In this document: positions 2,751 through 14,640 of the stretch, in pieces
Position numbering within the stretch: position 1 is the first letter of the stretch
Layout of the letters: the number at the start of each line of letters is the position of its first letter
Assembly: GCA_026395935.1 (NCBI GenBank)
Contig: JAPLXT010000056.1
Span: forward strand, 1 to 43,464
DNA length: 43,464 bases
Direction: 5' to 3'
Source of the DNA: Candidatus Nomurabacteria bacterium
GTDB taxonomy: Bacteria > Patescibacteriota > Minisyncoccia > Phycocordibacterales > UBA9973
Notes under the pieces: model-generated
The model's database searches: none
What the model was told of the DNA's origin: nothing
The model's input: only the letters and a program-made list of their open reading frames with translations
Program-made: the position numbers and the translations under genes

Positions 2751-4541
2751 ATGTTTTCGTTTATGGACAAAGAAAAAGACTACTCAAATCTTCACCGAAT
2801 GCTGGTGATCAAATATTTCTGGGCCGTCATGAAGCGATTTAAAATATCGTTTTTTAGCATTATCTTTTTCGTAATTGTTACAGCTGCTCTCGATATATTT
2901 ATACCACTTCAGTATTTAAGACTCTGGAATGTTTTGAGTGCCAACAAATTTGACCTCGTTAGCGTCGCGCAATCAATAATTCTTTTCATTCTTGCTTTGA
3001 ACCTTTTGCGTTGGCTTATGAGACGAATGGTAGGATTCTTCAATACTTATTTCCAAGCAAACGTCATGGCGGGCCTACGCGAGCAAGCCTTCTCCTACAT
3101 GATAGGGCATTCACATTCCTTCTTTGCAAATAATTTCGGTGGCTCGCTCACACAAAAAATAAATAAATACGCTAGAGCCTTCGAGAAGCTCATGGATAAA
3201 ATGGTGAACGATGGTTTACCACTCGTCATCAGATCTGTCGGAACCGTCTGGGCTATTTACACCCTATTACCAAAATATGCAATCATCTTGGCTATTTTCT
3301 GTGTTGTATTTTTAGTTACCGCCCTCATATATACACGATTCAAACTCAAGTACGATGTTATCGCCGCTCTGTCCGATACGAAGACGACGGGTGCACTCGC
3401 TGACTCCATAAGTAATCACTCGTCCATTCAACTTTTTGCTGGGCATGATTATGAAAGAGGTAGAGTTGGTGGCGTCATCCAAGATCAGAAGAAGGCGACA
3501 CTTTTCAACTGGTATCTATGGGAAGGGTTAGGATCTATTCAGGCTTTTTATTCAGTCTCTGTTGAATTTATAGTTTTCTGGATGGCTATTTCTGACTGGA
3601 GAGTAAGCTTGATAAGCCTACCTATAATAGTATTGCTCCAAAGTTATATGGCTCGCTTAACGGAAAATCTATGGGGATTCGCTGGAATCGTCCGTACTTT
3701 CTACGATGCGTTTGCTGATGCTCAGGAAATGGCGCTAGTACTCGATACTCCATATAGTGTTTGTGATAAAACTGAAGAGGAGATTAAAAATGTAAAAGGA
3801 AAAATTGTTTTCGATAACATCACATACATTTATGAGAATAATAATACAAAAGTTTTTGATAATTTCTCTTTGACAATAAAAGCTGGCGAAAAGATTGCCA
3901 TAGTCGGCTCGTCGGGGGCAGGGAAGTCAACCTTTGTGCGTCTACTTATGAGATTGTTTAATTTGGAAAAAGGAAAAATTTTGATCGATGGTGTAGACAT
4001 CGCAACTATTTCTCAGATGCATCTGCGTGAACAAATAGGTTTCGTACCGCAAGACCCAGTTCTCTTCCATAGAACTCTGATGGAGAATATTCGTTATGGA
4101 AGACGCAACGCTACAGATGAAGAAGTAATAAAAGCAGCTAACCTTGCGCATTGTGATGAATTCATTGATAATCTGCCACTCGGTTACGATACTTACGTCG
4201 GAGAAAGAGGAATTAAACTTTCCGGTGGTGAACGTCAACGCGTAGCTATTGCTCGTGCAATATTAAAGAATGCGCCGATACTTGTCCTCGATGAAGCAAC
4301 TTCAGCCCTAGACTCAGAATCAGAAATGCTTATCCAAGACGCACTCCATAACTTGATAGCAGGGAAGACTGTCATCGTCATCGCTCACAGACTCTCAACT
4401 ATCAGAGAGATGAATCGCATAATAGTAATTTCAGAAGGAAAAATAATTGAAGATGGTACGCATAATGAACTCCTAACTAAAGAAGATGGTATTTATAAAA
4501 AGCTTTGGAGTATCCAAGCTGGAGGATTTCAGATTAATTAG
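2751..4541 (+). CDS. ABC exporter, fused permease/ATPase (MsbA-like half transporter)
   Basis: N-terminal multi-TM domain, then Walker A GSSGAGKST, signature [14 protein letters not shown], Walker B ILVLDEATSALD and H-loop IAHRLST. Confidence 0.9.
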   Translation: MFSFMDKEKDYSNLHRMLVIKYFWAVMKRFKISFFSIIFFVIVTAALDIFIPLQYLRLWNVLSANKFDLVSVAQSIILFILALNLLRWLMRRMVGFFNTYFQANVMAGLREQAFSYMIGHSHSFFANNFGGSLTQKINKYARAFEKLMDKMVNDGLPLVIRSVGTVWAIYTLLPKYAIILAIFCVVFLVTALIYTRFKLKYDVIAALSDTKTTGALADSISNHSSIQLFAGHDYERGRVGGVIQDQKKATLFNWYLWEGLGSIQAFYSVSVEFIVFWMAISDWRVSLISLPIIVLLQSYMARLTENLWGFAGIVRTFYDAFADAQEMALVLDTPYSVCDKTEEEIKNVKGKIVFDNITYIYENNNTKVFDNFSLTIKAGEKIAIVGSSGAGKSTFVRLLMRLFNLEKGKILIDGVDIATISQMHLREQIGFVPQDPVLFHRTLMENIRYGRRNATDEEVIKAANLAHCDEFIDNLPLGYDTYVGERGIKLSGGERQRVAIARAILKNAPILVLDEATSALDSESEMLIQDALHNLIAGKTVIVIAHRLSTIREMNRIIVISEGKIIEDGTHNELLTKEDGIYKKLWSIQAGGFQIN

Positions 4542-4667
4542 GAACTATAAAAACGTAATAAAAATGTTCTCGAGCGAACCCTTACGGAGGCCGACGGGCC
4601 GAGTACGAGCAAAATTTTCAGCAGAAAATTATTGTGTGGTGAGTCCGAGAATTTTTTTATGTAGTTT

Positions 4668-5777
4668 TTATTTAATCTTTAAAACTATTATTTCTGGTGT
4701 TGTTCCTATACGAACTGGAGTCATGGCCGTACCGACACCTTCACTTGTGACGGACATGGTATTTGAAGTATTTGTAACTCCATAGAAATATTTACTATCG
4801 AGCATTTTCACTAAAATAGAAAAAGGGAAGAACTGTCCTTTGTGTGTGTGGCCAGATAGGACGAGGGATACTCCATCTGCCGCAAGCATTGGAATATCTT
4901 TTGGATCATGCATTAGAATAATGCTGGGAATATTTTTATTGTAACCTACCTTACTTAATTCTGTGGAAATCTCGTCTGCGGTTTTCCCTTCATTATAAGA
5001 AATGCCTATAATCTGTGTATCATTTACTATTACTTTTTTTTCTGTGACATTATTTAAATTCTTTGGAAGATTCTCTTTGAATATAGGGTATTCTTCACTG
5101 TATGCTTCATGATTCCCCTCGACATAGAAGTTGCCAAGTGGAGGATTGAGTAGGGAGATCGGAGCAAAACCTTCCTTATAAGGGAATGATGGACCATCTA
5201 TAAGGTCACCAATGTTGAAGGTGATGTCCGGCTTTTCGCTATTCATAATATCAACAACTTTTTTCATAAATTTACCCTGACGAATTATACCCAAATGAAC
5301 ATCGGAAATTATGACGATCTTCTTTCCTTTCCATAGTGGAGCAAGTGTAGGAGAAATTACTTCCATTCTCACAATGCGAGGATGATTCGCATTATAGATA
5401 CCATAAAGTATGACTAAGGTGGAAATGGTAATCAATATAAATGATATTAATTTGATTGGAAGATTAATATTAAAAGAATTATTGATAAGCATCAATAATA
5501 ATATAGTAGCTACTCCCATTAATAAGTATGTAAAGATCACAAGCCAGATACCACCCACTGCGTATATCCACGTATTAATAAGAGAGAAATGTTTTCCTCC
5601 GTAGAACATTGCCCCGACGAACATAGTCGGCAATAATACTCCTAATATTAAAATAATATTTTTCACGTACGGGTATTTAAAAGCGCCTAATGATCGAAAC
5701 GTGACGAATAGTAAATACTCACCAGAAATAGTTATAAATAAAAGAAGAATAGAAATGAAAATATATCGTAAGTACAT
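4668..5777 (-). CDS. Membrane-anchored calcineurin-like metallophosphoesterase
   Basis: About 4 N-terminal TM helices, then SDVHLG, GDLIDG, GNHE and SGHTH metallophosphoesterase motifs. Confidence 0.8.
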   Translation of the reverse strand: MYLRYIFISILLLFITISGEYLLFVTFRSLGAFKYPYVKNIILILGVLLPTMFVGAMFYGGKHFSLINTWIYAVGGIWLVIFTYLLMGVATILLLMLINNSFNINLPIKLISFILITISTLVILYGIYNANHPRIVRMEVISPTLAPLWKGKKIVIISDVHLGIIRQGKFMKKVVDIMNSEKPDITFNIGDLIDGPSFPYKEGFAPISLLNPPLGNFYVEGNHEAYSEEYPIFKENLPKNLNNVTEKKVIVNDTQIIGISYNEGKTADEISTELSKVGYNKNIPSIILMHDPKDIPMLAADGVSLVLSGHTHKGQFFPFSILVKMLDSKYFYGVTNTSNTMSVTSEGVGTAMTPVRIGTTPEIIVLKIK

Positions 5778-5780
5778 AAA

Positions 5781-6698
5781 TTATATTTTGTTATGTTTAA
5801 TTGATTTATAAAGGAAATATCCAATAATCATGAAAGTCAAAAGAGGGGAGACATAGTAAGGAATTTCTACTCCGAAAGAATCCATCATCATCACAATACC
5901 TAGAACGAAGATGGAATACATCGCGCCATTTTTAAGGAATACATATTTCTTTATTCTATCGATGTTTCCAATTGTAAGCTTTCTTAATACGAAAGCACCG
6001 AGACCATTACCGAGGATGATGAGAGGGACGGAGAGAGTGAAGGCGAAAGCACCGAGAACTCCATCGATAGAGAAAGTCATATCAATAATCTCAAGATAAA
6101 GAATTTTACTTATGTCACTTAGTTTGTTATCACCTGAAAGAAGTTTTTGTTCTCCTTTTTCTGCATTTTCTTTGAATCCATTAGTAATAAAGAAAGCAGT
6201 AGAACCAATGACAGCAGCAAAAGCAAGCATTGGATTTATTTTAATAGCGTACCAGACAGTGGTGGCTAGAAGTATAGAAACAAGAGCAAAGAACCAGACG
6301 CCATTGTTTTGGAAAAATCTCTCGTGATGAAGGCCGATAGTTTTCGGTTCAAGGAAAAGCCAATGAAAGAAAAGAAATATCAAGAAAATTCCACCACCTA
6401 AGAGTAGTACAGGGGCAGATTGTGCGACAGCAGCATGTATACTTGGGTCGTTCGAGAAGGCAGCAGTAAATGAGCCAATAGGACCGAGTGATGGCATGGT
6501 TGCCCAGATGATAGCCCAAGGAAGTAGTCCACGAACAACAAAAACAGCAAAGAAGAATCCATAAAGAAGGAACCATCTTCGACTCTTTTTTCCCATTGTG
6601 CCTAAAACTTCGGCATTTATAACAGCATTATCAACACTTGAAATAATTTCAAACAAACAAAGTCCCAAAACCGTGATTATGATTGTACTGAATGTCAT
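5781..6698 (-). CDS. Integral membrane protein, DUF475/TerC-superfamily-like
   Basis: Polytopic membrane protein with N-terminal 'EIISSVDNAVINAEVL' motif, recalled as typical of DUF475/TerC-like proteins. Family assignment is from memory only. Confidence 0.55.
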   Translation of the reverse strand: MTFSTIIITVLGLCLFEIISSVDNAVINAEVLGTMGKKSRRWFLLYGFFFAVFVVRGLLPWAIIWATMPSLGPIGSFTAAFSNDPSIHAAVAQSAPVLLLGGGIFLIFLFFHWLFLEPKTIGLHHERFFQNNGVWFFALVSILLATTVWYAIKINPMLAFAAVIGSTAFFITNGFKENAEKGEQKLLSGDNKLSDISKILYLEIIDMTFSIDGVLGAFAFTLSVPLIILGNGLGAFVLRKLTIGNIDRIKKYVFLKNGAMYSIFVLGIVMMMDSFGVEIPYYVSPLLTFMIIGYFLYKSIKHNKI

Positions 6699-6746: not shown

Positions 6747-8468
6747 ATGAAAAGCGAGATAAAAACCTGCCAGAATTGTAAGCTTGAATTTGTCATTGAG
6801 CCTGATGATTTTTTGTTTTATGAGAAAATTAAGGTTCCAGCTCCGACTTTTTGTCCGGAATGCAGATTACAAAGAAGAGTTTCATTGAGAAATGAGAGAG
6901 CTTTTTATCATAGAAATTGTGATTTATGTAAAGAAAAAATAATTTCAGTATTTAATGATAAAAATTTGAAAGTTTATTGTCAGGGTTGTTGGGCAAGTGA
7001 TCAATGGGATTCTTCTAGTTATGCAGTAGATTATGATTTTTCCAAGAATTTTTTTGCGCAATATATTGAACTCTTTAAAAAGATTCCACTTATAAATTTA
7101 AATGGACATATTTCAAATAAAAATTCACCCTATGTAAATTACATAACAGAAGCCAATAATTCCTATTATTGTTTTGGTGGAAGTTATCTTGAAAATGTAA
7201 TGTTTTCTAATCTTGGTGTTCGAATAAAAGATTCAATGGAAATTCTATTTTCTGAAGATTGTCAATTTTGTTATGAAATATTAAATTGCAGTAGATGTTA
7301 TAGGTTATTTTATGGAAATAATTCTCAAGATTGCCTAGATAGTTATTTTTTACAAGATTGTGGTAATTGTCATGATTGTATAATGTCTTGTAATTTAAAA
7401 AATCAGTATTATGTTTTTAAAAATGAACAGTTGTCTAAAGAAGAATATTTAATAAAAAAAGAAGAATTTTTAAAACAATTAAATAATGATGTTTCAAAAC
7501 GGAAAAAAGAATTTGCTGAGCATATTATTGCTTATCCAAAAAAATTTGCAAATATATTAAGATCCCAATCTTCTACTGGGAACAATATTCTTGAGTGTGC
7601 CGATGTTAAATCAGGTTTTAATGTTTCTAAATGCCAAAATGGTAAATATAATCAAGATGTAGTTGGTTCAGCAAAGGATGTTTACGATGTAACTAGTATA
7701 GGATTAAATGTAGAAATGATATATGAATCCACTGGTATGAGCAAGAATATTAATAACATATTATTTTCATCTCTCGTAAGAGATAGTTCTTTTAATGTTA
7801 GTTATTCATTTCATTGTCATGGAAGTAGTAATCTCTTTGGATGTATAGGATTGAGGAAAAAACAATATTGCATCCTCAACCGCCAATACACCAAAGAAGC
7901 CTACGAAGAACTAATTCCCAAGATAATCCAGCACATGTCTGACATGCCCTACATAGATAGCAAGGGTAGAGTATACAAATACGGTGAATTCTTCCCAAGT
8001 GAACTCTCACCCTTTGCCTACAACGAAACCATAGCCCAAGAGTACTTCCCATTAACGAAAGAAGAAGCTATAGAACAAGGTTACAAATGGAAAGACAAGG
8101 AAGAACGTAACTATAGTATAGATATACATACAGAGGACCTCCCAGACTCTATTAAAGAAATACCTGATACTGATATCCTAAACAAAGTCATAGAATGTAA
8201 CCATAAAGGAACCTGCAATCAACAATGTACGGAAGCCTTTAAGATAATACCCGAAGAACTATCCTTCTACAGACGTATGAATCTACTTTTACCCAGACTC
8301 TGCCCTAATTGTAGACACTATGAACGTCTATCTCAACGAAACCCAATGAAATTATGGCACAGGAGCTGTATGAAGGAAGGCTGTACTAACGAATTTGAGA
8401 CCTCATATGCACCGGAGAGGCCTGAGATCGTGTATTGTGAGAAGTGCTATCAGCAGGAAGTATACTAG
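6747..8468 (+). CDS. Cys-rich multi-zinc-ribbon protein of unknown function
   Basis: 573 aa with many CxxC pairs. The N-terminal module (CQNC..FY..P..CPECRLQRR..RNE..YHRNC) recurs near the C-terminus (CNQQC..FY..P..CPNCRHYER..RNP..WHRSC). Confidence 0.5.
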   Translation: MKSEIKTCQNCKLEFVIEPDDFLFYEKIKVPAPTFCPECRLQRRVSLRNERAFYHRNCDLCKEKIISVFNDKNLKVYCQGCWASDQWDSSSYAVDYDFSKNFFAQYIELFKKIPLINLNGHISNKNSPYVNYITEANNSYYCFGGSYLENVMFSNLGVRIKDSMEILFSEDCQFCYEILNCSRCYRLFYGNNSQDCLDSYFLQDCGNCHDCIMSCNLKNQYYVFKNEQLSKEEYLIKKEEFLKQLNNDVSKRKKEFAEHIIAYPKKFANILRSQSSTGNNILECADVKSGFNVSKCQNGKYNQDVVGSAKDVYDVTSIGLNVEMIYESTGMSKNINNILFSSLVRDSSFNVSYSFHCHGSSNLFGCIGLRKKQYCILNRQYTKEAYEELIPKIIQHMSDMPYIDSKGRVYKYGEFFPSELSPFAYNETIAQEYFPLTKEEAIEQGYKWKDKEERNYSIDIHTEDLPDSIKEIPDTDILNKVIECNHKGTCNQQCTEAFKIIPEELSFYRRMNLLLPRLCPNCRHYERLSQRNPMKLWHRSCMKEGCTNEFETSYAPERPEIVYCEKCYQQEVY

Positions 8469-8486: not shown

Positions 8487-8531
8487 TCTGCCCCCGAAAA
8501 TTACAATTTTCGGGGGCAGATTTAATTTTTT
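8487..8531 (+). terminator. Intrinsic terminator after the Cys-rich gene
   Basis: Perfect 15-bp stem TCTGCCCCCGAAAAT (8487-8501) / ATTTTCGGGGGCAGA (8506-8520), 4-nt loop, then a T-rich tract. Confidence 0.85.
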
Positions 8532-8673
8532 TGACAAGTAAAAATTAGAGAGGGAAATAGCCTTTATTAGTAGTACTTTAACGGGTAAAATTTTACAAAA
8601 TTTTGTGGAAGATTGACGGATTCCTAATATTTTTACATAGTGTTGATTTTTGCAAATTTTATAAGAATTTTGC

Positions 8674-8703
8674 TTGTGGAATAACTTGTACCGGAGGTAT
8701 AAT
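8674..8703 (+). promoter_or_regulatory. Candidate sigma70-type promoter for nrdJ
   Basis: TTGTGG (8674-8679), 18-nt spacer, TATAAT (8698-8703), about 60 nt upstream of the nrdJ ATG. Confidence 0.35.
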
Positions 8704-8762
8704 ATAGACCCGCAAGATCAGGGGAAAATTATTGGAACATTATTAACTAAAATTTTATAAAC

Positions 8763-11105
8763 ATGCCCTCAAAAAAGAAAGTGTCCAGTACAAAAAAAAT
8801 AGTCGATGCAAAAAATAAAAAAGTTGTTGCAAAGGTTCTCAAGAAAACTAACAAGAATGATTTTATTAAAGGCGTTCAAAAAAGAGATGGAGAAATTGTT
8901 CCATTTGATATCGAAAAAATTACGAATGCTGTTAATAAAGCAATGCTTGCAGGTGGTGAAGGCTCAATAGAGGAAGCGTCCGTGGTAGCTCGCAAGGTTT
9001 TGGCAGAGATGGAATTGATATCCAAGGAAAATAAGAAATTTATACCGACAATTGAAGGTATTCAAGACTCTGTCGAGAAGCAATTAATGCTTTCTGACTA
9101 TGTAAAAGCTTCGAAGAACTACATTCTCTATCGAGAAGAGAGAGCTCGTTTACGTTCCTCTGGTATTTATGTTCCTGATCATGTAAAAAAGTTAACTGAC
9201 GAAAGTAAAAAATATTTTAGGAATCCACTTTCTGAATTTGTTTACTATCGTTCGTATGCAAAATGGATTGAAGAGGAGGGCAGACGCGAGACTTGGATCG
9301 AGACGATCGATCGCTACATGAATTTCATGAAAAGTAATCTCGGTGACAAATTGAAAGAGTCTGAGTATCTTGAGGTTCGTGAAGCAATTCTAAGACAAGA
9401 AGCAATGCCATCGATGCGTCTCATACAATTCGCCGGAGCAGCTTGTGAAAAGACGAATGTCTGTGCATATAATTGTTCATTCGTTGCACCTGCATCATTC
9501 CAAGATTTTGGTGAAATAATTTATATCTCGATGTGTGGAACTGGAGTAGGATTCTCTGTTGAAAGTAAAAACATTCAATCACTTCCACAAATAAAACTTC
9601 AAAGTGGAAAGAAATTAGCTACTTTTGTTGTACCTGATACTAAAGAAGGTTGGGCAGATGCATTTGTTTTTGGAATGAAAACATGGTTTGAAGGAAAAGA
9701 TATTGATTTCGATTTTTCACTTCTTCGTCCTGCGGGAGCCCGCCTTAAAATAATGGGAGGTAAGAGTTCTGGACCAAAGCCACTTATGGACTTGCTCGGC
9801 TTTACTCGCGACAGAGTCATGAGACGCCAAGGCAGACATCTTCGCAATATTGATGCTCACGACATTATATGTAAAATAGGTGAATGTGTCGTTTCAGGTG
9901 GAGTTCGCCGAAGTGCCCTTATTTCACTGTCTGATTTAGACGATCAAGATATGCGTGATGCAAAAAATGGCCAATTCTGGATCAATGAAGGTCAGCGTAT
10001 GCTTGCGAACAACTCAGCAGTTTATAATGTAAAACCAACAGAAACAGAATTTTTGAAAGAATGGATTGCTCTTATGGAATCAGGATCAGGAGAGAGAGGA
10101 ATATTCAATCGTGAATCACTTTACAAAACTTTACCAAAGAGACGTCTTGAAAAGTCTGCTGACTATATCGGTGAGATGGGGACCAATCCTTGCGGAGAAA
10201 TAATTCTAAGATCAAAACAATTCTGTAATCTTTCTGAAGTTGTAGCCCGCGCAGAAGATAAAGAAGAAGATCTACTTCGAAAAATTCGTATTGCAACAAT
10301 CCTAGGTACTTATCAGTCTACACTTACAAAATTCGGATACCTTTCAAAAGAATGGAAGACTAATTGTGATGAAGAGAGACTTCTCGGCGTCTCAGTGACT
10401 GGTCAGTGGGATTCAAAGATTGCACGTAATGCGGAGATGTTAGCGAAGCTTCGACTTGAAGCAATTCGCATAAATAAAATTTATGCTAAAAGATTTGGGA
10501 TAAGTGAATCTACATGTATCACAGCAGTGAAGCCATCGGGAACAGTTTCTCAGACAGTTGACTGTTCGTCCGGTATGCATCCTCGTCACGCGCCTTACTA
10601 CATCCGCCGTATTCGTATCTCAGCTACAGATTCTCTTTTCAAAATGATGAAAGACCAAGGAGTTCCTTTTCATCCAGAAGTAGGACAGAATCTAGGAGAT
10701 GCTAATACTTTCGTTCTAGAATTTCCGATGAAGGCACCTAATGATGCAATTTGTAAAGACGACATCACTGCTATCGAACAGCTTGAACATTGGAAAATAG
10801 TAAAAGTAAATTACACAGAACATAATCCTTCCGTTACTATTTCAGTAGGGGAGAATGAATGGATCAAGGTCGCTCACTGGCTTTATCAGAATTGGGACAT
10901 TGTCGGAGGACTTTCTTTCCTTCCAAGAACTAATCACGTTTATCAACTTGCCCCTTATGAAGCGATAGATGAGAAGACTTATAAAGAATTAGTAGGGAGA
11001 ATGCCTGACTTTGATTTCTCAAAAATTGTGACTTATGAATTACGTGATGAGACCGAAGTAAAGAGAGAGCTTGCTTGTACTTCTGGTGTTTGTGATATAG
11101 TGTAA
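8763..11105 (+). CDS. nrdJ: Class II (adenosylcobalamin-dependent) ribonucleotide reductase with N-terminal ATP-cone
   Basis: ATP-cone (VQKRDGEIVPFDIEKI), active-site TNPCGEI motif, and C-terminal redox pair CTSGVCD. Length and motifs fit NrdJ. Confidence 0.88.
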   Translation: MPSKKKVSSTKKIVDAKNKKVVAKVLKKTNKNDFIKGVQKRDGEIVPFDIEKITNAVNKAMLAGGEGSIEEASVVARKVLAEMELISKENKKFIPTIEGIQDSVEKQLMLSDYVKASKNYILYREERARLRSSGIYVPDHVKKLTDESKKYFRNPLSEFVYYRSYAKWIEEEGRRETWIETIDRYMNFMKSNLGDKLKESEYLEVREAILRQEAMPSMRLIQFAGAACEKTNVCAYNCSFVAPASFQDFGEIIYISMCGTGVGFSVESKNIQSLPQIKLQSGKKLATFVVPDTKEGWADAFVFGMKTWFEGKDIDFDFSLLRPAGARLKIMGGKSSGPKPLMDLLGFTRDRVMRRQGRHLRNIDAHDIICKIGECVVSGGVRRSALISLSDLDDQDMRDAKNGQFWINEGQRMLANNSAVYNVKPTETEFLKEWIALMESGSGERGIFNRESLYKTLPKRRLEKSADYIGEMGTNPCGEIILRSKQFCNLSEVVARAEDKEEDLLRKIRIATILGTYQSTLTKFGYLSKEWKTNCDEERLLGVSVTGQWDSKIARNAEMLAKLRLEAIRINKIYAKRFGISESTCITAVKPSGTVSQTVDCSSGMHPRHAPYYIRRIRISATDSLFKMMKDQGVPFHPEVGQNLGDANTFVLEFPMKAPNDAICKDDITAIEQLEHWKIVKVNYTEHNPSVTISVGENEWIKVAHWLYQNWDIVGGLSFLPRTNHVYQLAPYEAIDEKTYKELVGRMPDFDFSKIVTYELRDETEVKRELACTSGVCDIV

Positions 11106-11114
11106 AGAGAATTT

Positions 11115-11636
11115 ATGAAAAGTTGGATTAAATATACAATTACATTCGTTTCTGTAATGGTCTTTAGGCTCATGCCCTTTCGGGCACCGAATGTAGAGCC
11201 TATAATGGCAACTATAATGCCCTTGGGTAAAGTTTATGGAGGATTTCATGCATTTCTATTTGGATTCCTTAGTATTGTCTTGTATGATTCCGTCACTTCA
11301 GGATTTGGTATCTGGACCCTTATAACAGCTTTGGCTTATGGAGCGCTAGGTGTAGGAGCAACATATTTCTTTAAGAATCGCTCTGGTTGGAGGAATTACG
11401 CTTTGTATGCAGTCATTGCTACTATCTTCTACGATGCTGTTACAGGATTAACTCTCGGACCTTTGTTCTTCCATCAATCATTTATGATGTCACTAGCGGG
11501 GCAGATTCCATTTACAATACTTCACTTGATTGGAAACGTTTCATTTGCTATAGTTCTATCACCAGTGATTGAAAAATGGATGGCAAAGAGTGAGGTCGCA
11601 GTGGCGAGGAAAGAGTTAGTTGTTTTGGTCAGTTAG
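11115..11636 (+). CDS. Small 5-6 TM membrane protein, ECF-S-component-like; candidate vitamin permease
   Basis: 173 aa, all hydrophobic helices, N-terminal 'FRLMPFRAPNVEPI' motif. Lies 9 nt after nrdJ and immediately upstream of the B12 riboswitch. Function is inferred from context only. Confidence 0.4.
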   Translation: MKSWIKYTITFVSVMVFRLMPFRAPNVEPIMATIMPLGKVYGGFHAFLFGFLSIVLYDSVTSGFGIWTLITALAYGALGVGATYFFKNRSGWRNYALYAVIATIFYDAVTGLTLGPLFFHQSFMMSLAGQIPFTILHLIGNVSFAIVLSPVIEKWMAKSEVAVARKELVVLVS

Positions 11637-11656
11637 TTGTTTAAAAAATTTGAATT

Positions 11657-11781
11657 AATATGTTTGGAAGTGAGGTGTGAATCCTCCACTGTGCCGCAAC
11701 GGTAATGCTCGAAAGAGATGAGTCCGGTCTTAACATATTGATAATCCCGAGCAGGAGAATATATTCTTATATATTAATAAA
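11657..11781 (+). promoter_or_regulatory. Cobalamin (B12) riboswitch, compact aptamer plus expression platform
   Basis: GGAAGTGAGGTGTGAATCCTCCACTGTGCCGCAACGGTAA matches the conserved cobalamin-riboswitch core (GGTG.GAATCC...CTG.GCCGCAACGGTAA). A B12-box-like GAGTCCGG follows. P1 is AATATGTT (11657-11664) / AACATATT (11732-11739). Confidence 0.8.
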
Positions 11782-11782
11782 A

Positions 11783-11808
11783 CTTCTGCTCAAGGCAGGA
11801 GCTTTTTT
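11783..11808 (+). terminator. Riboswitch-controlled intrinsic terminator
   Basis: CTTCTGC (11783-11789) / GCAGGAG (11795-11801) stem with one G.U pair, 5-nt loop, then C+TTTTTT. An upstream AGCAGGAG (11749-11756) offers an alternative partner. Confidence 0.7.
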
Positions 11809-11819
11809 AATTTATATTT

Positions 11820-12266
11820 ATGAAAAATAAAAAAATAATTATAATAGTTGGTTTAATTATATCTTTAATTATAATTTTTTTGATTATTCACCCCTCCGTC
11901 CTACGGACACCTCCCCTTAGCAGGGGAGGAATAAATACAGAGATAGTGCCTAAGGCACTATCTGAGAAAAACGTAAAAGTTTTTCTAACAGTACAAGAGA
12001 AAAAATATGAGACGGAAGTAAAAGAAAGTGGAACGGTATTTGAGGTAATGAAAAAAATACAAGATGAAAGTAGTAGTGCAAATCCATTTAGTTTTAAATA
12101 TACAGAGAATCCAAACTTAGGAGTATTTATAAATGAAATCAATGGTTTAAAAGGAGGAGGCGATGGATATTGGATTTATTATGTGAATGGGATTGAGGCT
12201 AATGTTGGTATATCAAATTATAAAATTAAGAATGGGGATATAATCTCTTGGAAATATGAAAAATAA
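11820..12266 (+). CDS. Membrane-anchored DUF4430 (transcobalamin C-domain-like) protein
   Basis: N-terminal TM anchor, then the DUF4430 pattern ..GTVFEVMKK..GVFINEINGL..GYWIYYVNG..IKNGDIISWKY. First gene downstream of the B12 riboswitch. Confidence 0.7.
   Translation: MKNKKIIIIVGLIISLIIIFLIIHPSVLRTPPLSRGGINTEIVPKALSEKNVKVFLTVQEKKYETEVKESGTVFEVMKKIQDESSSANPFSFKYTENPNLGVFINEINGLKGGGDGYWIYYVNGIEANVGISNYKIKNGDIISWKYEK
11887..11932 (+). repeat. GC-rich hairpin element, copy 1 (in frame inside the CDS)
   Basis: TTCACCCCTCCGTCCTACGGACACCTCCCCTTAGCAGGGGAGGAAT is near-identical to 43214-43257. Contains the 8-bp hairpin CCTCCCCT (11910-11917) / AGGGGAGG (11922-11929). Encodes HPSVLRTPPLSRGG. Confidence 0.8.
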
Positions 12267-13803
12267 AATTAAGGTCTCGTTTGTTTTATTTTGTTTAAGT
12301 TTTGTTTTATTAGGGCATAATTTCGTGTTAGCTGATGATATTCAAAATTTTTCAATTACAAAAAATATATCTCTTCCTGACAATTGTTCAATTAAAGATA
12401 CTAATGATAAGACACATATTTTTCCAGAGGAAAGCTCATCGAGTAAATTTCTAGGTATTTGTGCACTTGAAGAAGCTAAAAAACAAGGAGCGATTGATGA
12501 TTTTAAAATTGTTGAGTATCCATTTGGACTTTTTATTGATTCTATAAATAATTTAAAATCAGATACATCATATTGGGCCCTTTATCTAAATGATATATAC
12601 GAGGAGCGTGGTTTAACAATACTTCCTTTATTATCTGGTGATAAGATGTCGCTTGTTTATGTTGATTTTAATAATGTAGAATTGGGTTCACGTGTTGATA
12701 TTCATATTGATGAACTTACTCCATCGCCTGAGAAAAGAACAAGTGGTAGTAGTGGTAGTTATATAAGAGGATTTATTCCACAAATAGTCACCGAAAAAGT
12801 TTTTTCCGTAGAAAATGCTTTAAAATTTTTAGAAATAAATCAGAAAAGTGACGGATCATATAGTGCTCCAATGTATACTGATTGGGTGGCCGTAGCTATT
12901 GGGGCAGGGGATGATAAAGAGATAAAATCAAAACTAATAAATTATTTGAAAGAGAATGGGATAGATTCATCTGTTGTGACCGACAACGAAAGACATGCAA
13001 TGGCCCTTATGTCTTTAGGAATAGATCCATATACTGGCACAAAAGTAAATTATATTAAAAAAATTACTGACAGTTTCGATGGAATTCAATTTGGTGATAA
13101 AACTCTTGTGAATGATGATATATTTGCTTTGATTGTTTTGAAAAATGCTGGGTATTCTATAAACGATGAATTAATAATAAAGGATCTAAACTATATTATT
13201 TCTAAACAAGGTGAAGATGGTTCTTGGGGGAGTATCGACATGACAGCTGCGGGAATACAAGCCTTAAAAAGTTTTGAAAATATTTCCGGTGTGAATGACG
13301 CAATTTTGAAGGCAGAAAAATATATAACAACAAATCAAAAGATAGATGGTGGCTTCGAAAATTCGTCGTCTACTTCTTGGGTGCTTCAAATTTTATCCGA
13401 AAATAAAGAAATTTTAAAAACAGAAGGTTACTTAGCTTCTAAACAAGAGGCAGATGGCGGAATGGAAAGCGTCGGAACTGACTTGAATACTCGTATATGG
13501 GCAACGGCGTATGCGATCCCTGCGATTTTATACAAACCTTGGGGTGCAATCTTAAATAATTTCCCCAAACCAGATATAAGTACTTTAACATTAAACAAAA
13601 ATGAAATTATTAAGCAAAACAGAAAAGTTACTTCTAAAATATTTAATATAAATAATGGTGAGGTCATAAAAAATGGAGAAGATAGAAGAAAAATAGAAAA
13701 TATAATTGATAGTAATGGGGAAGTGAAAATTAATAAACCTTCGAATATATGGCGAGTTTTCAAGGCTCCTTTTAGTTGGCTTTTGGGAAAGCTTGGATTC
13801 TGA
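12256..13803 (+). CDS. Secreted DUF4430 + alpha/alpha-toroid (prenyltransferase/terpene-cyclase-repeat) protein, transcobalamin-like
   Basis: Signal peptide; N-terminal DUF4430-like segment (FGLFIDSINNL..SYWALYLND); four Q..DG(S/G)(W/F/Y/M) repeats (QKSDGSYS, QGEDGSWG, QKIDGGFE, QEADGGME). Overlaps the upstream gene by 11 nt. Confidence 0.7.
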   Translation: MKNKIKVSFVLFCLSFVLLGHNFVLADDIQNFSITKNISLPDNCSIKDTNDKTHIFPEESSSSKFLGICALEEAKKQGAIDDFKIVEYPFGLFIDSINNLKSDTSYWALYLNDIYEERGLTILPLLSGDKMSLVYVDFNNVELGSRVDIHIDELTPSPEKRTSGSSGSYIRGFIPQIVTEKVFSVENALKFLEINQKSDGSYSAPMYTDWVAVAIGAGDDKEIKSKLINYLKENGIDSSVVTDNERHAMALMSLGIDPYTGTKVNYIKKITDSFDGIQFGDKTLVNDDIFALIVLKNAGYSINDELIIKDLNYIISKQGEDGSWGSIDMTAAGIQALKSFENISGVNDAILKAEKYITTNQKIDGGFENSSSTSWVLQILSENKEILKTEGYLASKQEADGGMESVGTDLNTRIWATAYAIPAILYKPWGAILNNFPKPDISTLTLNKNEIIKQNRKVTSKIFNINNGEVIKNGEDRRKIENIIDSNGEVKINKPSNIWRVFKAPFSWLLGKLGF

Positions 13804-13815
13804 TATACTAGATAG

Positions 13816-14079
13816 ATGAAAACACAAGTCAAATTCATTATATTTATAGTAGCAGTTGTAGTATTAGTAGGAGGTTTTGGAGTTTATTCTGCTTTTAAAT
13901 CAGCACCACCAAGTAAGCTTGATGGCTTCGCTCAATGTTTGAAAACTGGAGGAGCAGAATTCTATGGAGCATTTTGGTGTCCTCATTGTCAGGAACAAAA
14001 GGCAGAGGGAACAAGTCAAAATGGTAGACTAACACTTCAAACTTTAGCAGATAAAACGCAATGTGTACTTCCTCAATAA
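13816..14079 (+). CDS. Membrane-anchored thioredoxin-like CPHC protein, abnormally short
   Basis: TM anchor, then FYGAFWCPHCQEQK active-site motif and a C-terminal LQTLADKTQC tail. The central part expected in such proteins is missing. Confidence 0.5.
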   Translation: MKTQVKFIIFIVAVVVLVGGFGVYSAFKSAPPSKLDGFAQCLKTGGAEFYGAFWCPHCQEQKAEGTSQNGRLTLQTLADKTQCVLPQ

Positions 14080-14082
14080 TTT

Positions 14083-14640
14083 ATGCCTGCATATGTAGAA
14101 ATAGTAAATAAAATTCTTGCAATTGGAACTATCGGTCTCCAAGTTGTTGTTGTGGCTATTTTAATTGGATTAATCTTTTTCAGAAATAGAGAAAATCCTT
14201 TTTTAATGTTAGTCAAAGAATACACTTTCATTCTTGGCTTCCTTGCTGCGCTTGGAGCTTTTCTTCTATCACTTTTCTACTCTAATATTGTTGGATTTCC
14301 ACCTTGTGAACTTTGCTGGATTCAGAGAATTTTCTTATACCCACAATTAATACTTTTCGGAATGGAATTATATAAACGTGATCGCTCAATTGTAGACTTC
14401 AGTATTGTCTTTGCTACTATTGGATCAATTGTTTCTGTCTATCATCTATATATAGAGAATGGGGGAGCATCGAACCTTGGCTGTGCAGCTCTAACACCCG
14501 CAAGTGCTACTCAGGTCTCTTGCGCGACTCGTTACATTTACGAATTCGGCTACGTCACCATGCCCCTTATGGCTCTCACCTTATCTTTATTTATAATCAC
14601 CATCTTGGTAAATTATAAATACATGGCAAGAGTGAAATAA
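14083..14640 (+). CDS. Disulfide bond formation protein, DsbB/BdbC family
   Basis: 4-TM protein with CELC in the first extracytoplasmic loop and a second Cys pair (LGCAAL..VSCATRY). Adjacent to the thioredoxin-like gene. Confidence 0.75.
   Translation: MPAYVEIVNKILAIGTIGLQVVVVAILIGLIFFRNRENPFLMLVKEYTFILGFLAALGAFLLSLFYSNIVGFPPCELCWIQRIFLYPQLILFGMELYKRDRSIVDFSIVFATIGSIVSVYHLYIENGGASNLGCAALTPASATQVSCATRYIYEFGYVTMPLMALTLSLFIITILVNYKYMARVK

What the first reader, a model, noticed from the sequence alone, without database searches (positions are those of the whole stretch)
8763..13803. B12 use-and-capture module: nrdJ, a small permease-like protein, and a riboswitch driving two transcobalamin-like DUF4430 proteins
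A B12-dependent RNR is followed 9 nt later by a 173-aa ECF-S-like membrane protein. A cobalamin riboswitch then controls an anchored DUF4430 protein and a secreted protein fusing DUF4430 to a Q..DGSW-repeat alpha/alpha toroid.
Eukaryotic transcobalamin and intrinsic factor use the same two folds, but in the opposite order (alpha barrel, then beta domain). No canonical BtuCDF, BtuB or ECF energising genes are visible nearby.
The arrangement suggests a surface B12-scavenging device feeding the only visible B12 enzyme in an organism unlikely to synthesise corrinoids. To my knowledge, bacterial DUF4430/toroid pairs lack experimental characterisation as corrinoid binders.
Basis: partly seen in the sequence, partly recalled or inferred. 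Interest (0 to 1): 0.66.

Follow-up and report, generated by a model that had tools for sequence, protein, structure and literature searches.

The report
Riboswitch-gated vitamin B12 capture operon
A tiny-genome (Paceibacteria-type) bacterium keeps its B12-dependent DNA-precursor enzyme next to a B12-type membrane carrier and two B12-riboswitch-controlled surface proteins built like human transcobalamin; the feature is real and very conserved, but this kind of system was already predicted in 2007-2009.

Summary
The + strand carries, in order:
- a class II RNR, nrdJ (8763-11105);
- 9 nt later, a 173-aa ECF S-component (11115-11636);
- an AdoCbl riboswitch (RF01482, 60.3 bits, 11639-11794) with an intrinsic terminator;
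- a membrane-anchored DUF4430 protein (11820-12266);
- a signal-peptide protein with DUF4430 followed by a 12-helix alpha/alpha toroid (12256-13803).

The 173-aa protein belongs to the CbrT family, the proven B12 S-component (family profile vs PDB 6FNP, E=3e-12). The L. delbrueckii gene called cbrS in the known nrdJ-cbrS-cbrT-pduO cluster is itself a DUF4430 protein.

The order nrdJ, S, riboswitch, DUF4430, toroid, Trx-like, DsbB recurs in almost all of 80 metagenome loci. Two archaeal proteins fuse the S-component to DUF4430. Distant relatives sit beside BtuR adenosyltransferase.

The B12-scavenging reading is therefore well supported by computation. It is not new in kind:
- Burroughs et al. 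2007 described bacterial transcobalamin-like domain/toroid proteins, in either domain order, with a paralogous partner, as B12 scavengers.
- An L. sakei ECF operon with split transcobalamin-like subunits has been linked to haem uptake.

Still unresolved: corrinoid binding, the energising module, and the sign of the switch (OFF is likely). This is a new member of a known kind. Interest 0.4.

The parts
8613..8703 (+). Promoter-like blocks upstream of nrdJ: TTGACG-17-CATAGT (8613-8641) and an extended -10, GTATAAT (8697-8703).
   Evidence: The consensus scan found the first block. Both blocks, and the leader ATTATTAACTAAAATTT, are conserved in 17 orthologous loci. No Rfam family matches here.
8763..11105 (+). 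nrdJ: class II (adenosylcobalamin-dependent) ribonucleotide reductase of the RTPR type, with an N-terminal ATP-cone.
   Evidence: Pfam finds ATP-cone, RNR_Alpha and RNR-II_ins_dom. TIGR02505 matches at 1.9e-81, below its cutoff. It is 29% identical to the L. delbrueckii RTPR over 542 aa, E=4e-48. It lies directly upstream of the S gene in 72 of 72 informative loci.
11115..11636 (+). CbrT-family ECF S-component, the predicted corrinoid translocator (173 aa, 6 predicted helices).
   Evidence: The AF2 model has pLDDT 80.7 and pTM 0.77. The top 20 Foldseek PDB hits are all S-components, TM 0.41-0.64. The 74-sequence family profile hits CbrT (6FNP_A) at E=3.1e-12, and the next PDB hit is at 0.016. 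hhalign against L. delbrueckii CbrT gives 96.9% probability.
11639..11794 (+). AdoCbl-class cobalamin riboswitch aptamer. It includes the invariant L5 region ACTGTGCCGCAACGG (11688-11702) and the invariant CCCGAGCAGGAG (11746-11757).
   Evidence: RF01482 scores 60.3 bits, E=9.5e-9. The same family is found at the same position in L001, L003, L005 and L008, and in 9 further loci. The L5 motif is present in 74 of 78 loci. CCGAGCAGG is invariant in 80 of 81 loci.
11783..11808 (+). Intrinsic terminator of the riboswitch: CTTCTGCT-CAA-GGCAGGAG followed by CTTTTTT. Its 5' strand can alternatively pair with the upstream GAGCAGGAG (11749-11757).
   Evidence: The terminator scan found it. Nearly all of the ~70 distinct platform sequences folded carry a hairpin plus T-run, with many compensatory stem changes.
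11820..12266 (+). Membrane-anchored DUF4430 protein (transcobalamin beta-domain type, CbrS-like), 148 aa.
   Evidence: PF14478 matches at 1e-15. The family profile's best PDB hits are transcobalamin II (0.0095) and haptocorrin (0.0099), both at their C-terminal domains. hhalign against L. delbrueckii CbrS gives 93.7% probability. It is present downstream of S in 60 of 62 loci.
12256..13803 (+). Exported protein of 515 aa: signal peptide, DUF4430 domain (about residues 40-137), disordered linker, alpha6/alpha6 toroid (about 180-440), low-complexity linker, and a conserved hydrophobic C-terminal tail.
   Evidence: See the AF2 model. Foldseek returns drimenyl-PP synthase at 8e-7, transcobalamin from 8e-6, haptocorrin at 3e-4 and intrinsic factor at 3e-3. 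Among 30 relatives, Pfam gives SQHop_cyclase_C 30, DUF4430 27 and Cobalamin_bind 16. The gene is present in 43 of 44 informative loci.
13816..14640 (+). Possible accessory pair: a membrane-anchored thioredoxin-like CPHC protein (13816-14079, which carries an in-frame deletion of about 38 aa in this window) and DsbB (14083-14640).
   Evidence: The genes are tightly packed, with 12-nt and 3-nt gaps. DsbB matches Pfam at 1.9e-13. The homologue in L001 gives a weak Thioredoxin hit. The pair is conserved after the toroid gene: Trx-like in 34 of 37 loci and DsbB in 28 of 34. The deletion is shown. A functional link to the module is inference only.

Best explanation
This is a vitamin B12 (corrinoid) use-and-salvage operon of a Paceibacteria-type (CPR) bacterium.

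Proposed working:
- Conserved promoters upstream of nrdJ drive the B12-dependent ribonucleotide reductase and a CbrT-family S-component. The S-component carries corrinoid across the membrane.
- An AdoCbl riboswitch starts 3 nt after the S gene's stop codon. It acts as an internal attenuator.
- When the cell holds enough coenzyme B12, the aptamer captures the invariant CCCGAGCAGGAG segment. I propose a kissing contact between L5 (UGCCG) and CG(A)GCA.
- The terminator then forms, and transcription stops before the capture genes.
- When B12 is scarce, that segment pairs with the terminator's 5' strand, and transcription reads through.
- Read-through expresses two extracytoplasmic binders. One is an anchored beta-domain-only DUF4430 protein, equivalent to CbrS. 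The other is a larger protein in which a DUF4430 domain and an alpha6/alpha6 toroid would sandwich the corrinoid as in transcobalamin, but with the domains in the reverse order.
- The binders concentrate corrinoid at the surface and hand it to the S-component.

Shown here: the identities and folds of the parts, the riboswitch and terminator, conservation of the arrangement, homology to CbrT and CbrS, and natural S-DUF4430 fusions.

Inferred: corrinoid binding, the hand-off, the OFF sign of the switch (about 0.65), and the energy source (a shared ECF module elsewhere, or solitary operation as in BtuM).
For: - The riboswitch matches RF01482 at 60.3 bits. It is conserved at the same place in the orthologous loci.
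- A terminator is present in nearly all loci, with compensatory stem changes.
- The family profile hits CbrT (6FNP) at E=3.1e-12, with no other S-component closer than 0.016. CbrT is an experimentally proven B12 and cobinamide S-component in an nrdJ-cbrS-cbrT-pduO cluster (PMC5997447).
- The gene at the cbrS position in L. delbrueckii is a DUF4430 protein, 7.5e-20.
- P0403 and P0414 are natural fusions: S-component, an extra TM helix, then DUF4430.
- Distant family members sit next to the BtuR/CobA adenosyltransferase and an RNR.
- The small DUF4430 profile's best PDB matches are the transcobalamin and haptocorrin beta domains. PDB holds isolated transcobalamin beta-domain entries (5no0 and others, listed).
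- The toroid matches transcobalamin structures at E about 1e-5. PF01122 matches 16 of 30 relatives.
- Synteny in 80 loci: NrdJ 72/72, aptamer motif 74/78, DUF4430 60/62, toroid 43/44.
- The two loci that lack the toroid gene (L049, L098) also lack the riboswitch.
- Burroughs et al. 2007 reached the same functional prediction for this protein class.
Against: - No binding or transport data exist for any of these proteins.
- The window's own toroid protein has no PF01122 hit. By sequence it is nearer to squalene-hopene-cyclase repeats. By Foldseek a terpene synthase ranks above transcobalamin.
- No EcfA, EcfT or adenosyltransferase is found in the window. None lies within 4.5 kb of the S gene in 80 loci.
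- The helix-1 AxxxA of CbrT is not conserved in this family. This is my reading of the alignment.
- One archaeal S-DUF4430 fusion follows nrdD-nrdG, a B12-independent RNR.
- The related L. sakei system has been linked to haem rather than B12.
- The Rfam model aligns the antiterminator helix as P13. Taken literally, that gives an activating topology.
Confidence: 0.7

Rival explanations
1. The parts are the same, but the riboswitch is an activating (ON) switch. Ligand would stabilise the hairpin GAGCAGGAG...CUUCUGCUC, which Rfam aligns as P13. That hairpin shares its 3' strand with the terminator, so B12 would induce the binders rather than repress them.
For: - The Rfam alignment places that hairpin as the model's terminal stem.
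- It is mutually exclusive with the terminator.
- Kennedy et al. showed that a 3' side of P13 shared with the terminator's 5' side defines the only known activating corrinoid riboswitch, A. halodurans cobT.
Against: - The loop of that hairpin is A/U-only and variable, so it cannot kiss the invariant L5 UGCCG.
- CCGAGCAGG stays invariant in 80 of 81 loci while terminator stems change completely. It therefore probably contacts the aptamer and not only the terminator.
- In L019, L024 and L027 the Rfam hit ends about 20 nt after that motif, which suggests a short P13.
- Uptake genes are normally repressed by B12 (general knowledge).
Confidence: 0.2
2. The DUF4430 and toroid proteins capture another tetrapyrrole, such as haem, or a different soluble ligand. 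The S-component would import that ligand, and B12 would only regulate the system.
For: - The L. sakei lsa1836-1840 ECF-like operon, with transcobalamin-like beta and alpha subunits, was linked to haem uptake.
- A reviewer of Burroughs et al. warned that ligands of this clade may be diverse.
- An archaeal S-DUF4430 fusion sits beside the B12-independent nrdDG.
Against: - An AdoCbl riboswitch sits directly upstream.
- A B12-dependent RNR is invariably adjacent.
- The S-component is specifically homologous to CbrT, which transports B12.
- BtuR adenosyltransferase lies next to distant family members.
Confidence: 0.08
3. The toroid protein is an enzyme, such as a class II terpene cyclase or a prenyltransferase-like protein. 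It would not be a binder.
For: - The best sequence and Foldseek hits are squalene-hopene cyclase and drimenyl diphosphate synthase.
- An invariant NDD (N286-D287-D288) aligns with the DxDD region of SHC.
Against: - The protein has only one 12-helix barrel. Class II cyclases need two barrels (general knowledge).
- The first Asp of DxDD is Asn.
- The protein is exported and fused to a transcobalamin-type beta domain.
- It is controlled by a B12 riboswitch.
Confidence: 0.02

Closest known systems
nrdJ-cbrS-cbrT-pduO cluster and ECF-CbrT of Lactobacillus delbrueckii (Rodionov 2009 as cited in, and Santos et al. 2018, PMC5997447; PDB 6FNP)
   Same: Both have a class II RNR next to a DUF4430 protein and a CbrT-family S-component. 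I verified the L. delbrueckii locus (L009): cbrS is PF14478 at 7.5e-20 and CbrT is PF12822. The window's S family hits CbrT at E=3e-12.
   Different: - The gene order differs: S comes before DUF4430 here.
- A riboswitch lies between them here, whereas none reaches the gathering score in L009.
- This locus has an additional DUF4430+toroid protein.
- There is no PduO here.
- The window S protein aligns to CbrT at low identity (about 24% in the A4 family-profile alignment).
- Use of an ECF module is unknown.
Bacterial transcobalamin-like SLBB (DUF4430) / alpha-alpha toroid surface proteins predicted to scavenge B12 (Burroughs, Balaji, Iyer, Aravind 2007, PMC1796856)
   Same: Both are signal-peptide proteins that fuse the beta-grasp domain to a toroid. 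A toroid C-terminal to the SLBB domain was already noted in Bacillus. In both, the operon holds a second paralogous SLBB protein, and the hosts lack B12 synthesis.
   Different: - The earlier operons carried CbiO/CbiQ-type (ECF A/T) genes; none lies near this one.
- The lineage is CPR rather than Gram-positive bacteria.
- This locus is coupled to nrdJ and to an internal riboswitch.
Lactobacillus sakei lsa1836-1840 ECF-like system with transcobalamin-like alpha and beta subunits (bioRxiv 10.1101/864751)
   Same: Both combine an S-component with extracellular transcobalamin-like alpha (toroid) and beta (DUF4430) proteins.
   Different: - There, alpha and beta are separate proteins; here one protein carries both domains and a second is beta-only.
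- That operon encodes its own ECF module.
- The ligand assigned there was haem.
Eukaryotic transcobalamin, intrinsic factor and haptocorrin (PF01122 + PF14478)
   Same: The same two folds are present. The small DUF4430 family's best PDB matches are their beta domains. The toroid matches their alpha domains.
   Different: - The domain order is reversed.
- The window protein has no PF01122 hit.
- It carries QW-like repeats typical of cyclase-type toroids.
- It has a membrane or cell-surface context.
BtuM of Thiobacillus denitrificans, a solitary S-component-like B12 transporter (PMC6072759)
   Same: Both are small S-component-fold proteins for B12 with no ECF module visible. BtuM sets the precedent for working without one.
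   Different: BtuM is not detected by the family profile or by Foldseek among the top 50 hits. BtuM's cysteine ligand has no evident counterpart here.
Repressing corrinoid riboswitch of P. megaterium metE, with P13, antiterminator and terminator (Kennedy et al., PMC10327014)
   Same: Both control transcription termination. In my model, the L13/P13 3' side pairs with the terminator's 5' strand when unbound.
   Different: - P13 here would be a 2-5 bp mini-stem, with no covariation seen.
- The switch sits inside an operon, 3 nt after a stop codon.

Membership tests
Cobalamin riboswitch (Rfam clan CL00101; RF01482 AdoCbl) | Covariance-model score at or above the curated gathering score over the full model. 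| tested here: met
   The hit scores 60.3 bits against a cutoff of 50, covers model positions 1-149 and has E=9.5e-9.
Cobalamin riboswitch (Rfam clan CL00101; RF01482 AdoCbl) | Conserved at the orthologous position, with an expression platform. | tested here: met
   RF01482 hits lie at the same place in 13 other loci. The core motif is in 74 of 78 loci. The terminator is conserved with compensatory changes.
Cobalamin riboswitch (Rfam clan CL00101; RF01482 AdoCbl) | L5-L13 kissing loop and ligand-dependent switching. | tested here: inconclusive
   L5 (UGCCG) and the candidate partner CG(A)GCA are both invariant, so no covariation can be seen. Ligand response cannot be tested here.
CbrT (B12-specific ECF S-component) | S-component fold of six membrane helices. 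| tested here: met
   The AF2 model has pTM 0.77. The top 20 Foldseek PDB hits are all S-components.
CbrT (B12-specific ECF S-component) | Sequence homology to CbrT rather than to other S-components. | tested here: met
   The family profile A4 hits 6FNP_A at E=3.1e-12 over 149 of 177 positions, and the next S-component is at 0.016. hhalign gives 96.9% probability. The single sequence alone is not significant, E=0.1.
CbrT (B12-specific ECF S-component) | Genomic association with nrdJ and cbrS. | tested here: met
   nrdJ is adjacent in 72 of 72 loci and DUF4430 lies downstream in 60 of 62. cbrS is a DUF4430 protein.
CbrT (B12-specific ECF S-component) | Works with an EcfAA'T module. | tested here: inconclusive
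   No such genes are in the window or within 4.5 kb in 80 loci. Group II S-components normally use a module encoded elsewhere, and whole genomes could not be searched. The AxxxA of CbrT helix 1 is not conserved (my reading).
CbrT (B12-specific ECF S-component) | Transports cobalamin or cobinamide. | not testable with these tools
   This needs an uptake or complementation assay.
DUF4430 / transcobalamin-like SLBB domain (PF14478) | Pfam match above the gathering score. | tested here: met
   The 148-aa protein scores 58.4 bits against 23.8. The 515-aa protein alone scores 17.7 bits, below the cutoff, but 27 of 30 relatives match and hhalign to the small family gives 98.1% probability.
DUF4430 / transcobalamin-like SLBB domain (PF14478) | Relationship to the transcobalamin beta domain. 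| tested here: met
   The profile's best PDB hits are transcobalamin II (residues 297-408 of 414, E=0.0095) and haptocorrin (0.0099). These E-values are weak.
Eukaryotic cobalamin-binding proteins (transcobalamin, IF, haptocorrin; PF01122) | Match to PF01122 (the alpha domain). | tested here: not met
   The window protein has no hit at E<=0.01. Only 16 of 30 relatives give weak hits, the best at 1.7e-6.
Eukaryotic cobalamin-binding proteins (transcobalamin, IF, haptocorrin; PF01122) | Alpha domain N-terminal and beta domain C-terminal. | tested here: not met
   The order here is beta (about 40-137) then alpha (about 180-440).
Eukaryotic cobalamin-binding proteins (transcobalamin, IF, haptocorrin; PF01122) | Single alpha6/alpha6 barrel structurally similar to transcobalamin. 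| tested here: met
   The model has 12 helices. Foldseek hits to transcobalamin range from 8e-6 to 1e-4, with TM-scores of 0.42-0.48 on the target.
Class II terpene cyclases (SHC-like) | Two-barrel architecture and a DxDD acid motif. | tested here: not met
   There is one barrel only. The motif is NDD.
Class II (B12-dependent) ribonucleotide reductase | B12-dependent RNR insertion domain and RTPR-type core. | tested here: met
   PF21995 matches at 1.2e-7, above its cutoff. TIGR02505 matches at 1.9e-81 but with 274 bits, below the 340 cutoff. The protein is 29% identical to the L. delbrueckii RTPR.

The most novel reading that the evidence does not exclude
In this CPR clade the CbrT-like carrier may work without any ECF ATPase module, as BtuM does. 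It would be loaded directly by the anchored beta-domain protein, with which it is fused in some DPANN-type archaea. A reverse-order transcobalamin-like protein would serve as the high-affinity outer scavenger. This minimal, riboswitch-gated relay would be the only route by which these symbionts obtain the cofactor for their sole RNR.
Probability: 0.25. Interest if true: 0.65.

Novelty: new member of a known kind. Interest (0 to 1): 0.4.

Why it matters
CPR bacteria have minimal metabolism and depend on their neighbours. In this clade the only visible ribonucleotide reductase needs coenzyme B12, so B12 capture would gate DNA synthesis.

The locus gives a clean and very conserved test case, seen in 80 or more loci, for a 2007 prediction that has never been tested biochemically. 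That prediction holds that bacterial transcobalamin-like beta-domain/toroid proteins bind corrinoids and feed ECF-type carriers.

The locus also offers natural S-component-DUF4430 fusions as evidence of direct partnership. Its riboswitch sits inside an operon, separating constitutive genes for B12 use and transport from conditional genes for capture.

None of this changes current concepts; it extends them to a new lineage.

Tried and rejected
- **Narrow PDB searches for the S protein.** The single sequence and the narrow (70%+ identity) profile gave only E=0.1-0.8 to CbrT. Significance needed a diverse profile built from the representatives search.
- **Foldseek for CbrT or BtuM.** Foldseek with the S model did not list either among its top 50 hits. 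The CbrT link therefore rests on sequence profiles.
- **Sequence-level link to transcobalamin.** Profiles of the whole 515-aa family and of its N-terminal domain did not reach transcobalamin in PDB by sequence.
- **Rodionov 2009.** The paper could not be read. What cbrS is I established from the L. delbrueckii DNA instead.
- **One wasted search.** A literature search with min_terms=1 returned nothing useful.
- **Mini-P13.** I tested whether a mini-P13 (x-CC[CGAGCA]GG-y) covaries. The stem is only 2-5 bp and shows no covariation.
- **Antiterminator.** I tested whether the invariant segment is complementary to each terminator's 5' strand. It is clearly better than shuffles in only about 60% of loci. 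The antiterminator model is therefore incomplete for the GCCCCUCCG-type and CCCCUAGG-type terminators.
- **P1 strand and hairpin loop.** A 10-bp complementarity between the P1 5' strand and the A/U-rich loop, by my reading of the window sequence, is absent from the other loci in the alignment, so I dismissed it as chance.
- **C-terminal tail as a sorting signal.** I asked whether the tail is a general sorting signal. It occurs only on the toroid proteins in the fetched DNA.
- **Upstream ABC half-transporter as a B12 importer.** It is an ordinary PF00664/PF00005 exporter type and is separated from the operon by an opposite-strand gene. I rejected it as a component.
- **Whole-genome searches.** Presence of an ECF module or an adenosyltransferase elsewhere in these genomes could not be checked with the available tools.

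Full report
**What is there**

The + strand of 8763-14640 carries a compact gene row:
- nrdJ (8763-11105);
- a 9-nt gap;
- a 173-aa membrane protein (11115-11636);
- a 183-nt spacer;
- a 148-aa protein (11820-12266), overlapping by 11 nt a 515-aa protein (12256-13803);
- a small CPHC protein (13816-14079);
- DsbB (14083-14640).

Rfam finds exactly one family in the whole window at gathering score. It is an AdoCbl riboswitch (RF01482, clan CL00101) at 11639-11794, with 60.3 bits and E=9.5e-9. It starts 3 nt after the stop codon of the 173-aa gene.

Pfam and NCBIfam confirm a class II RNR: ATP-cone, RNR_Alpha, RNR-II insertion domain, and TIGR02505 at 1.9e-81 below its cutoff. They also give DUF4430 at 1e-15 for the 148-aa protein, and sub-threshold DUF4430 and squalene-hopene-cyclase-repeat hits for the 515-aa protein.

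No BtuCDF, BtuB, EcfA/T, adenosyltransferase or second B12 enzyme is among the other ORFs of the window. The only correction is that the riboswitch family is RF01482 rather than RF00174.

**The small membrane protein is a CbrT relative**

- Alone it gives only E=0.1 to PDB 6FNP chain A. 6FNP is ECF-CbrT, the B12 transporter of L. delbrueckii.
- A search of 1.84 billion representatives with the family alignment found 260 clusters.
- A 74-sequence profile of these hits CbrT at E=3.1e-12 over 149 of 177 positions. The next PDB S-component is at 0.016. hhalign gives 96.9% probability.
- The AF2 model (pTM 0.77) matches only ECF S-components among its top 20 PDB hits.
- Pfam splits the family between PF07155, DUF6580 and PF12822.

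**The link to the known Lactobacillus cluster**

Santos et al. 2018 state that CbrT lies in an nrdJ-cbrS-cbrT-pduO cluster. I fetched that locus (L009). The 159-aa gene between nrdJ and cbrT is a DUF4430 protein with a signal/anchor sequence (7.5e-20). It aligns to the window's 148-aa family at 93.7% probability. The window therefore contains the same three parts.

**Transcobalamin likeness**

- The small DUF4430 family's best PDB matches are the C-terminal domains of transcobalamin II (E=0.0095) and haptocorrin (0.0099).
- The N-terminal domain of the 515-aa family is homologous to the small family (98.1% probability, E=1e-13).
- The AF2 model of the 515-aa protein has these parts, in order:
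  - a signal peptide;
  - a beta-rich domain (about 40-137, pLDDT about 70-77);
  - a disordered linker;
  - a 12-helix barrel (180-440, pLDDT above 90);
  - a disordered K/N/E-rich stretch;
  - a C-terminal helix.
- Foldseek returns a class II terpene synthase first (8e-7). It then returns many transcobalamin entries (8e-6 to 1e-4), haptocorrin and intrinsic factor.
- Among 30 relatives, Pfam matches SQHop_cyclase_C in 30, DUF4430 in 27, TED_complement in 22 and Cobalamin_bind (PF01122) in 16.

The protein therefore has the two transcobalamin folds in reverse order. It is not a member of the eukaryotic family: it has no PF01122 hit of its own, and its order is reversed. It is not a cyclase either: it has one barrel, and NDD in place of DxDD.

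**Conservation**

Protein look-ups gave five further loci with the same order, in Paceibacterota and Nomurabacteria MAGs. A metagenome scan gave 268 relatives, of which 80 loci were kept. My survey of those 80 loci found:

| Feature | Loci with feature / informative loci |
|---|---|
| NrdJ directly upstream of S | 72 / 72 |
| Aptamer core motif within 200 nt after S | 74 / 78 |
| Small DUF4430 gene downstream | 60 / 62 |
| Toroid gene | 43 / 44 |
| Trx-like gene | 34 / 37 |
| DsbB | 28 / 34 |

L049 and L098 have S, DUF4430, Trx-like and DsbB with neither toroid nor riboswitch. No ECF A/T gene lies within 4.5 kb in any locus.

**Wider family**

- Two representative clusters (P0403, P0414) are fusions of the S-component, a seventh TM helix and DUF4430. 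P0403 lies on an archaeal contig (MCM, TBP) right after nrdD-nrdG.
- Distant members P0315 and P0302 are adjacent to the BtuR/CobA adenosyltransferase, and P0315 also to an RNR.
- These contexts support a corrinoid role and a physical S-DUF4430 partnership.
- The nrdDG neighbour is a caveat, because class III RNR does not need B12.

**Riboswitch mechanism**

- A terminator (11783-11801, then T-rich) follows the aptamer.
- Its 5' strand CUUCUGCUC can instead pair with the upstream GAGCAGGAG.
- Across about 80 loci the terminator stems differ widely, with compensatory changes. CCGAGCAGG and the L5 region remain invariant.
- Kennedy et al. show the two known topologies. Repressing corrinoid switches use the P13 3' side to pair with the terminator's 5' side when unbound. 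The one known activating switch shares that strand between P13 and the terminator.
- Rfam's alignment suggests the shared (activating) topology. However, that hairpin's A/U loop cannot kiss L5.
- I propose that CC[CGAGCA]GG is the P13/L13 equivalent. It would kiss L5 (UGCCG) with a bulged A. That gives the ordinary repressing logic.
- This is inference. I put OFF at about 0.65, ON at about 0.2, and leave the rest unresolved.
- Because the aptamer abuts the S gene, and conserved promoters lie upstream of nrdJ, the switch most likely attenuates read-through from nrdJ-S.

**Comparison with the literature**

- Burroughs et al. 2007 already defined the transcobalamin-like SLBB clade in bacteria.
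  - They noted fusions to a toroid on either side.
  - They noted operons holding a second paralogous SLBB protein.
  - They noted association with CbiO/CbiQ-type genes and the hosts' lack of B12 synthesis.
  - They predicted B12 scavenging and a bacterial origin of animal transcobalamin.
- An L. sakei ECF-like operon with separate transcobalamin-like alpha and beta subunits was tied to haem uptake.
- 'DUF4430' appears in only 8 held papers. None of them characterises a bacterial member biochemically.
- I found no relevant paper on CPR B12 uptake.

**Verdict**

It is a new member of a known, computationally predicted kind, here in a CPR lineage. Its local peculiarities are:
- an internal riboswitch;
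- no nearby ECF module or adenosyltransferase;
- a tight Trx-like/DsbB pair.

Interest is 0.4.

Noticed in passing
window 13816-14079: The thioredoxin-like CPHC protein is only 87 aa. Compared with its 125-188 aa orthologues, it has lost about 38 residues in frame from the middle, including the GYPTW cis-Pro region. It may be a degenerate gene or an assembly artefact.
   Followed up: partly
window 13750-13803 (C-terminus of the 515-aa protein): A conserved hydrophobic C-terminal tail, W..K.PF.WLL.KLGF, follows a disordered K/N/E-rich linker. In the fetched loci it occurs only on the toroid proteins. It may be an anchor or an interaction helix.
   Followed up: partly
window 6747-8468: A 573-aa cysteine-rich protein with CxxC pairs at both ends has no Pfam, NCBIfam or PDB match. 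A homologue lies upstream of nrdJ in 28 of the metagenome loci, and L001 has two copies.
   Followed up: partly
window 8524-8762: The nrdJ leader has two conserved promoter-like blocks (TTGACG-17-CATAGT and GTATAAT). A conserved ATTATTAACTAAAATTT lies just before the start codon. A 12-nt palindrome, ACAAAATTTTGT, is also present (at about 8595-8606 by my count). No Rfam family matches here. A possible NrdR-type control was not examined.
   Followed up: partly
window 2751-6698: An exporter-type ABC half-transporter (2751-4541) and a TerC/DUF475 membrane protein (5781-6698, minus strand) recur upstream of nrdJ in many loci. This is probably clade synteny and not part of the module.
   Followed up: partly
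L016 1-3095: On an archaeal contig, an S-component-DUF4430 fusion gene overlaps the end of an nrdD-nrdG (class III, B12-independent RNR) pair. The link of this carrier family to RNR genes therefore extends beyond B12-dependent enzymes.
   Followed up: partly
L049 and L098: These two variant loci have the DUF4430 gene immediately after the S gene, with no riboswitch and no toroid gene. The riboswitch and the toroid binder thus appear together or not at all.
   Followed up: partly
L003 about 10700-10850; L056 and L070 after the terminator: Three loci share an extra sequence, ATGAATCCCGTTAGA, between the riboswitch terminator and the DUF4430 start codon. In L003 it lies within a spacer of about 150 nt. 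It is unexplained.
   Followed up: no
L006 about 3330-3350: This orthologous riboswitch carries a 19-nt G+C-rich hairpin insertion (CCCCGCCTTGGCGGGG) in the L4 loop. That probably explains why it falls below the Rfam gathering score. Several other loci (for example L056, L070, L073, L079) show extra spacing between the aptamer motifs that suggests a similar insertion.
   Followed up: no
L007 10001-11653: In a Kaiserbacteria-type contig, a toroid-only relative (550 aa, weak PF01122) stands alone. It has no nrdJ, S-component, DUF4430 gene or B12 riboswitch nearby. An FMN riboswitch controls the neighbouring riboflavin genes.
   Followed up: no
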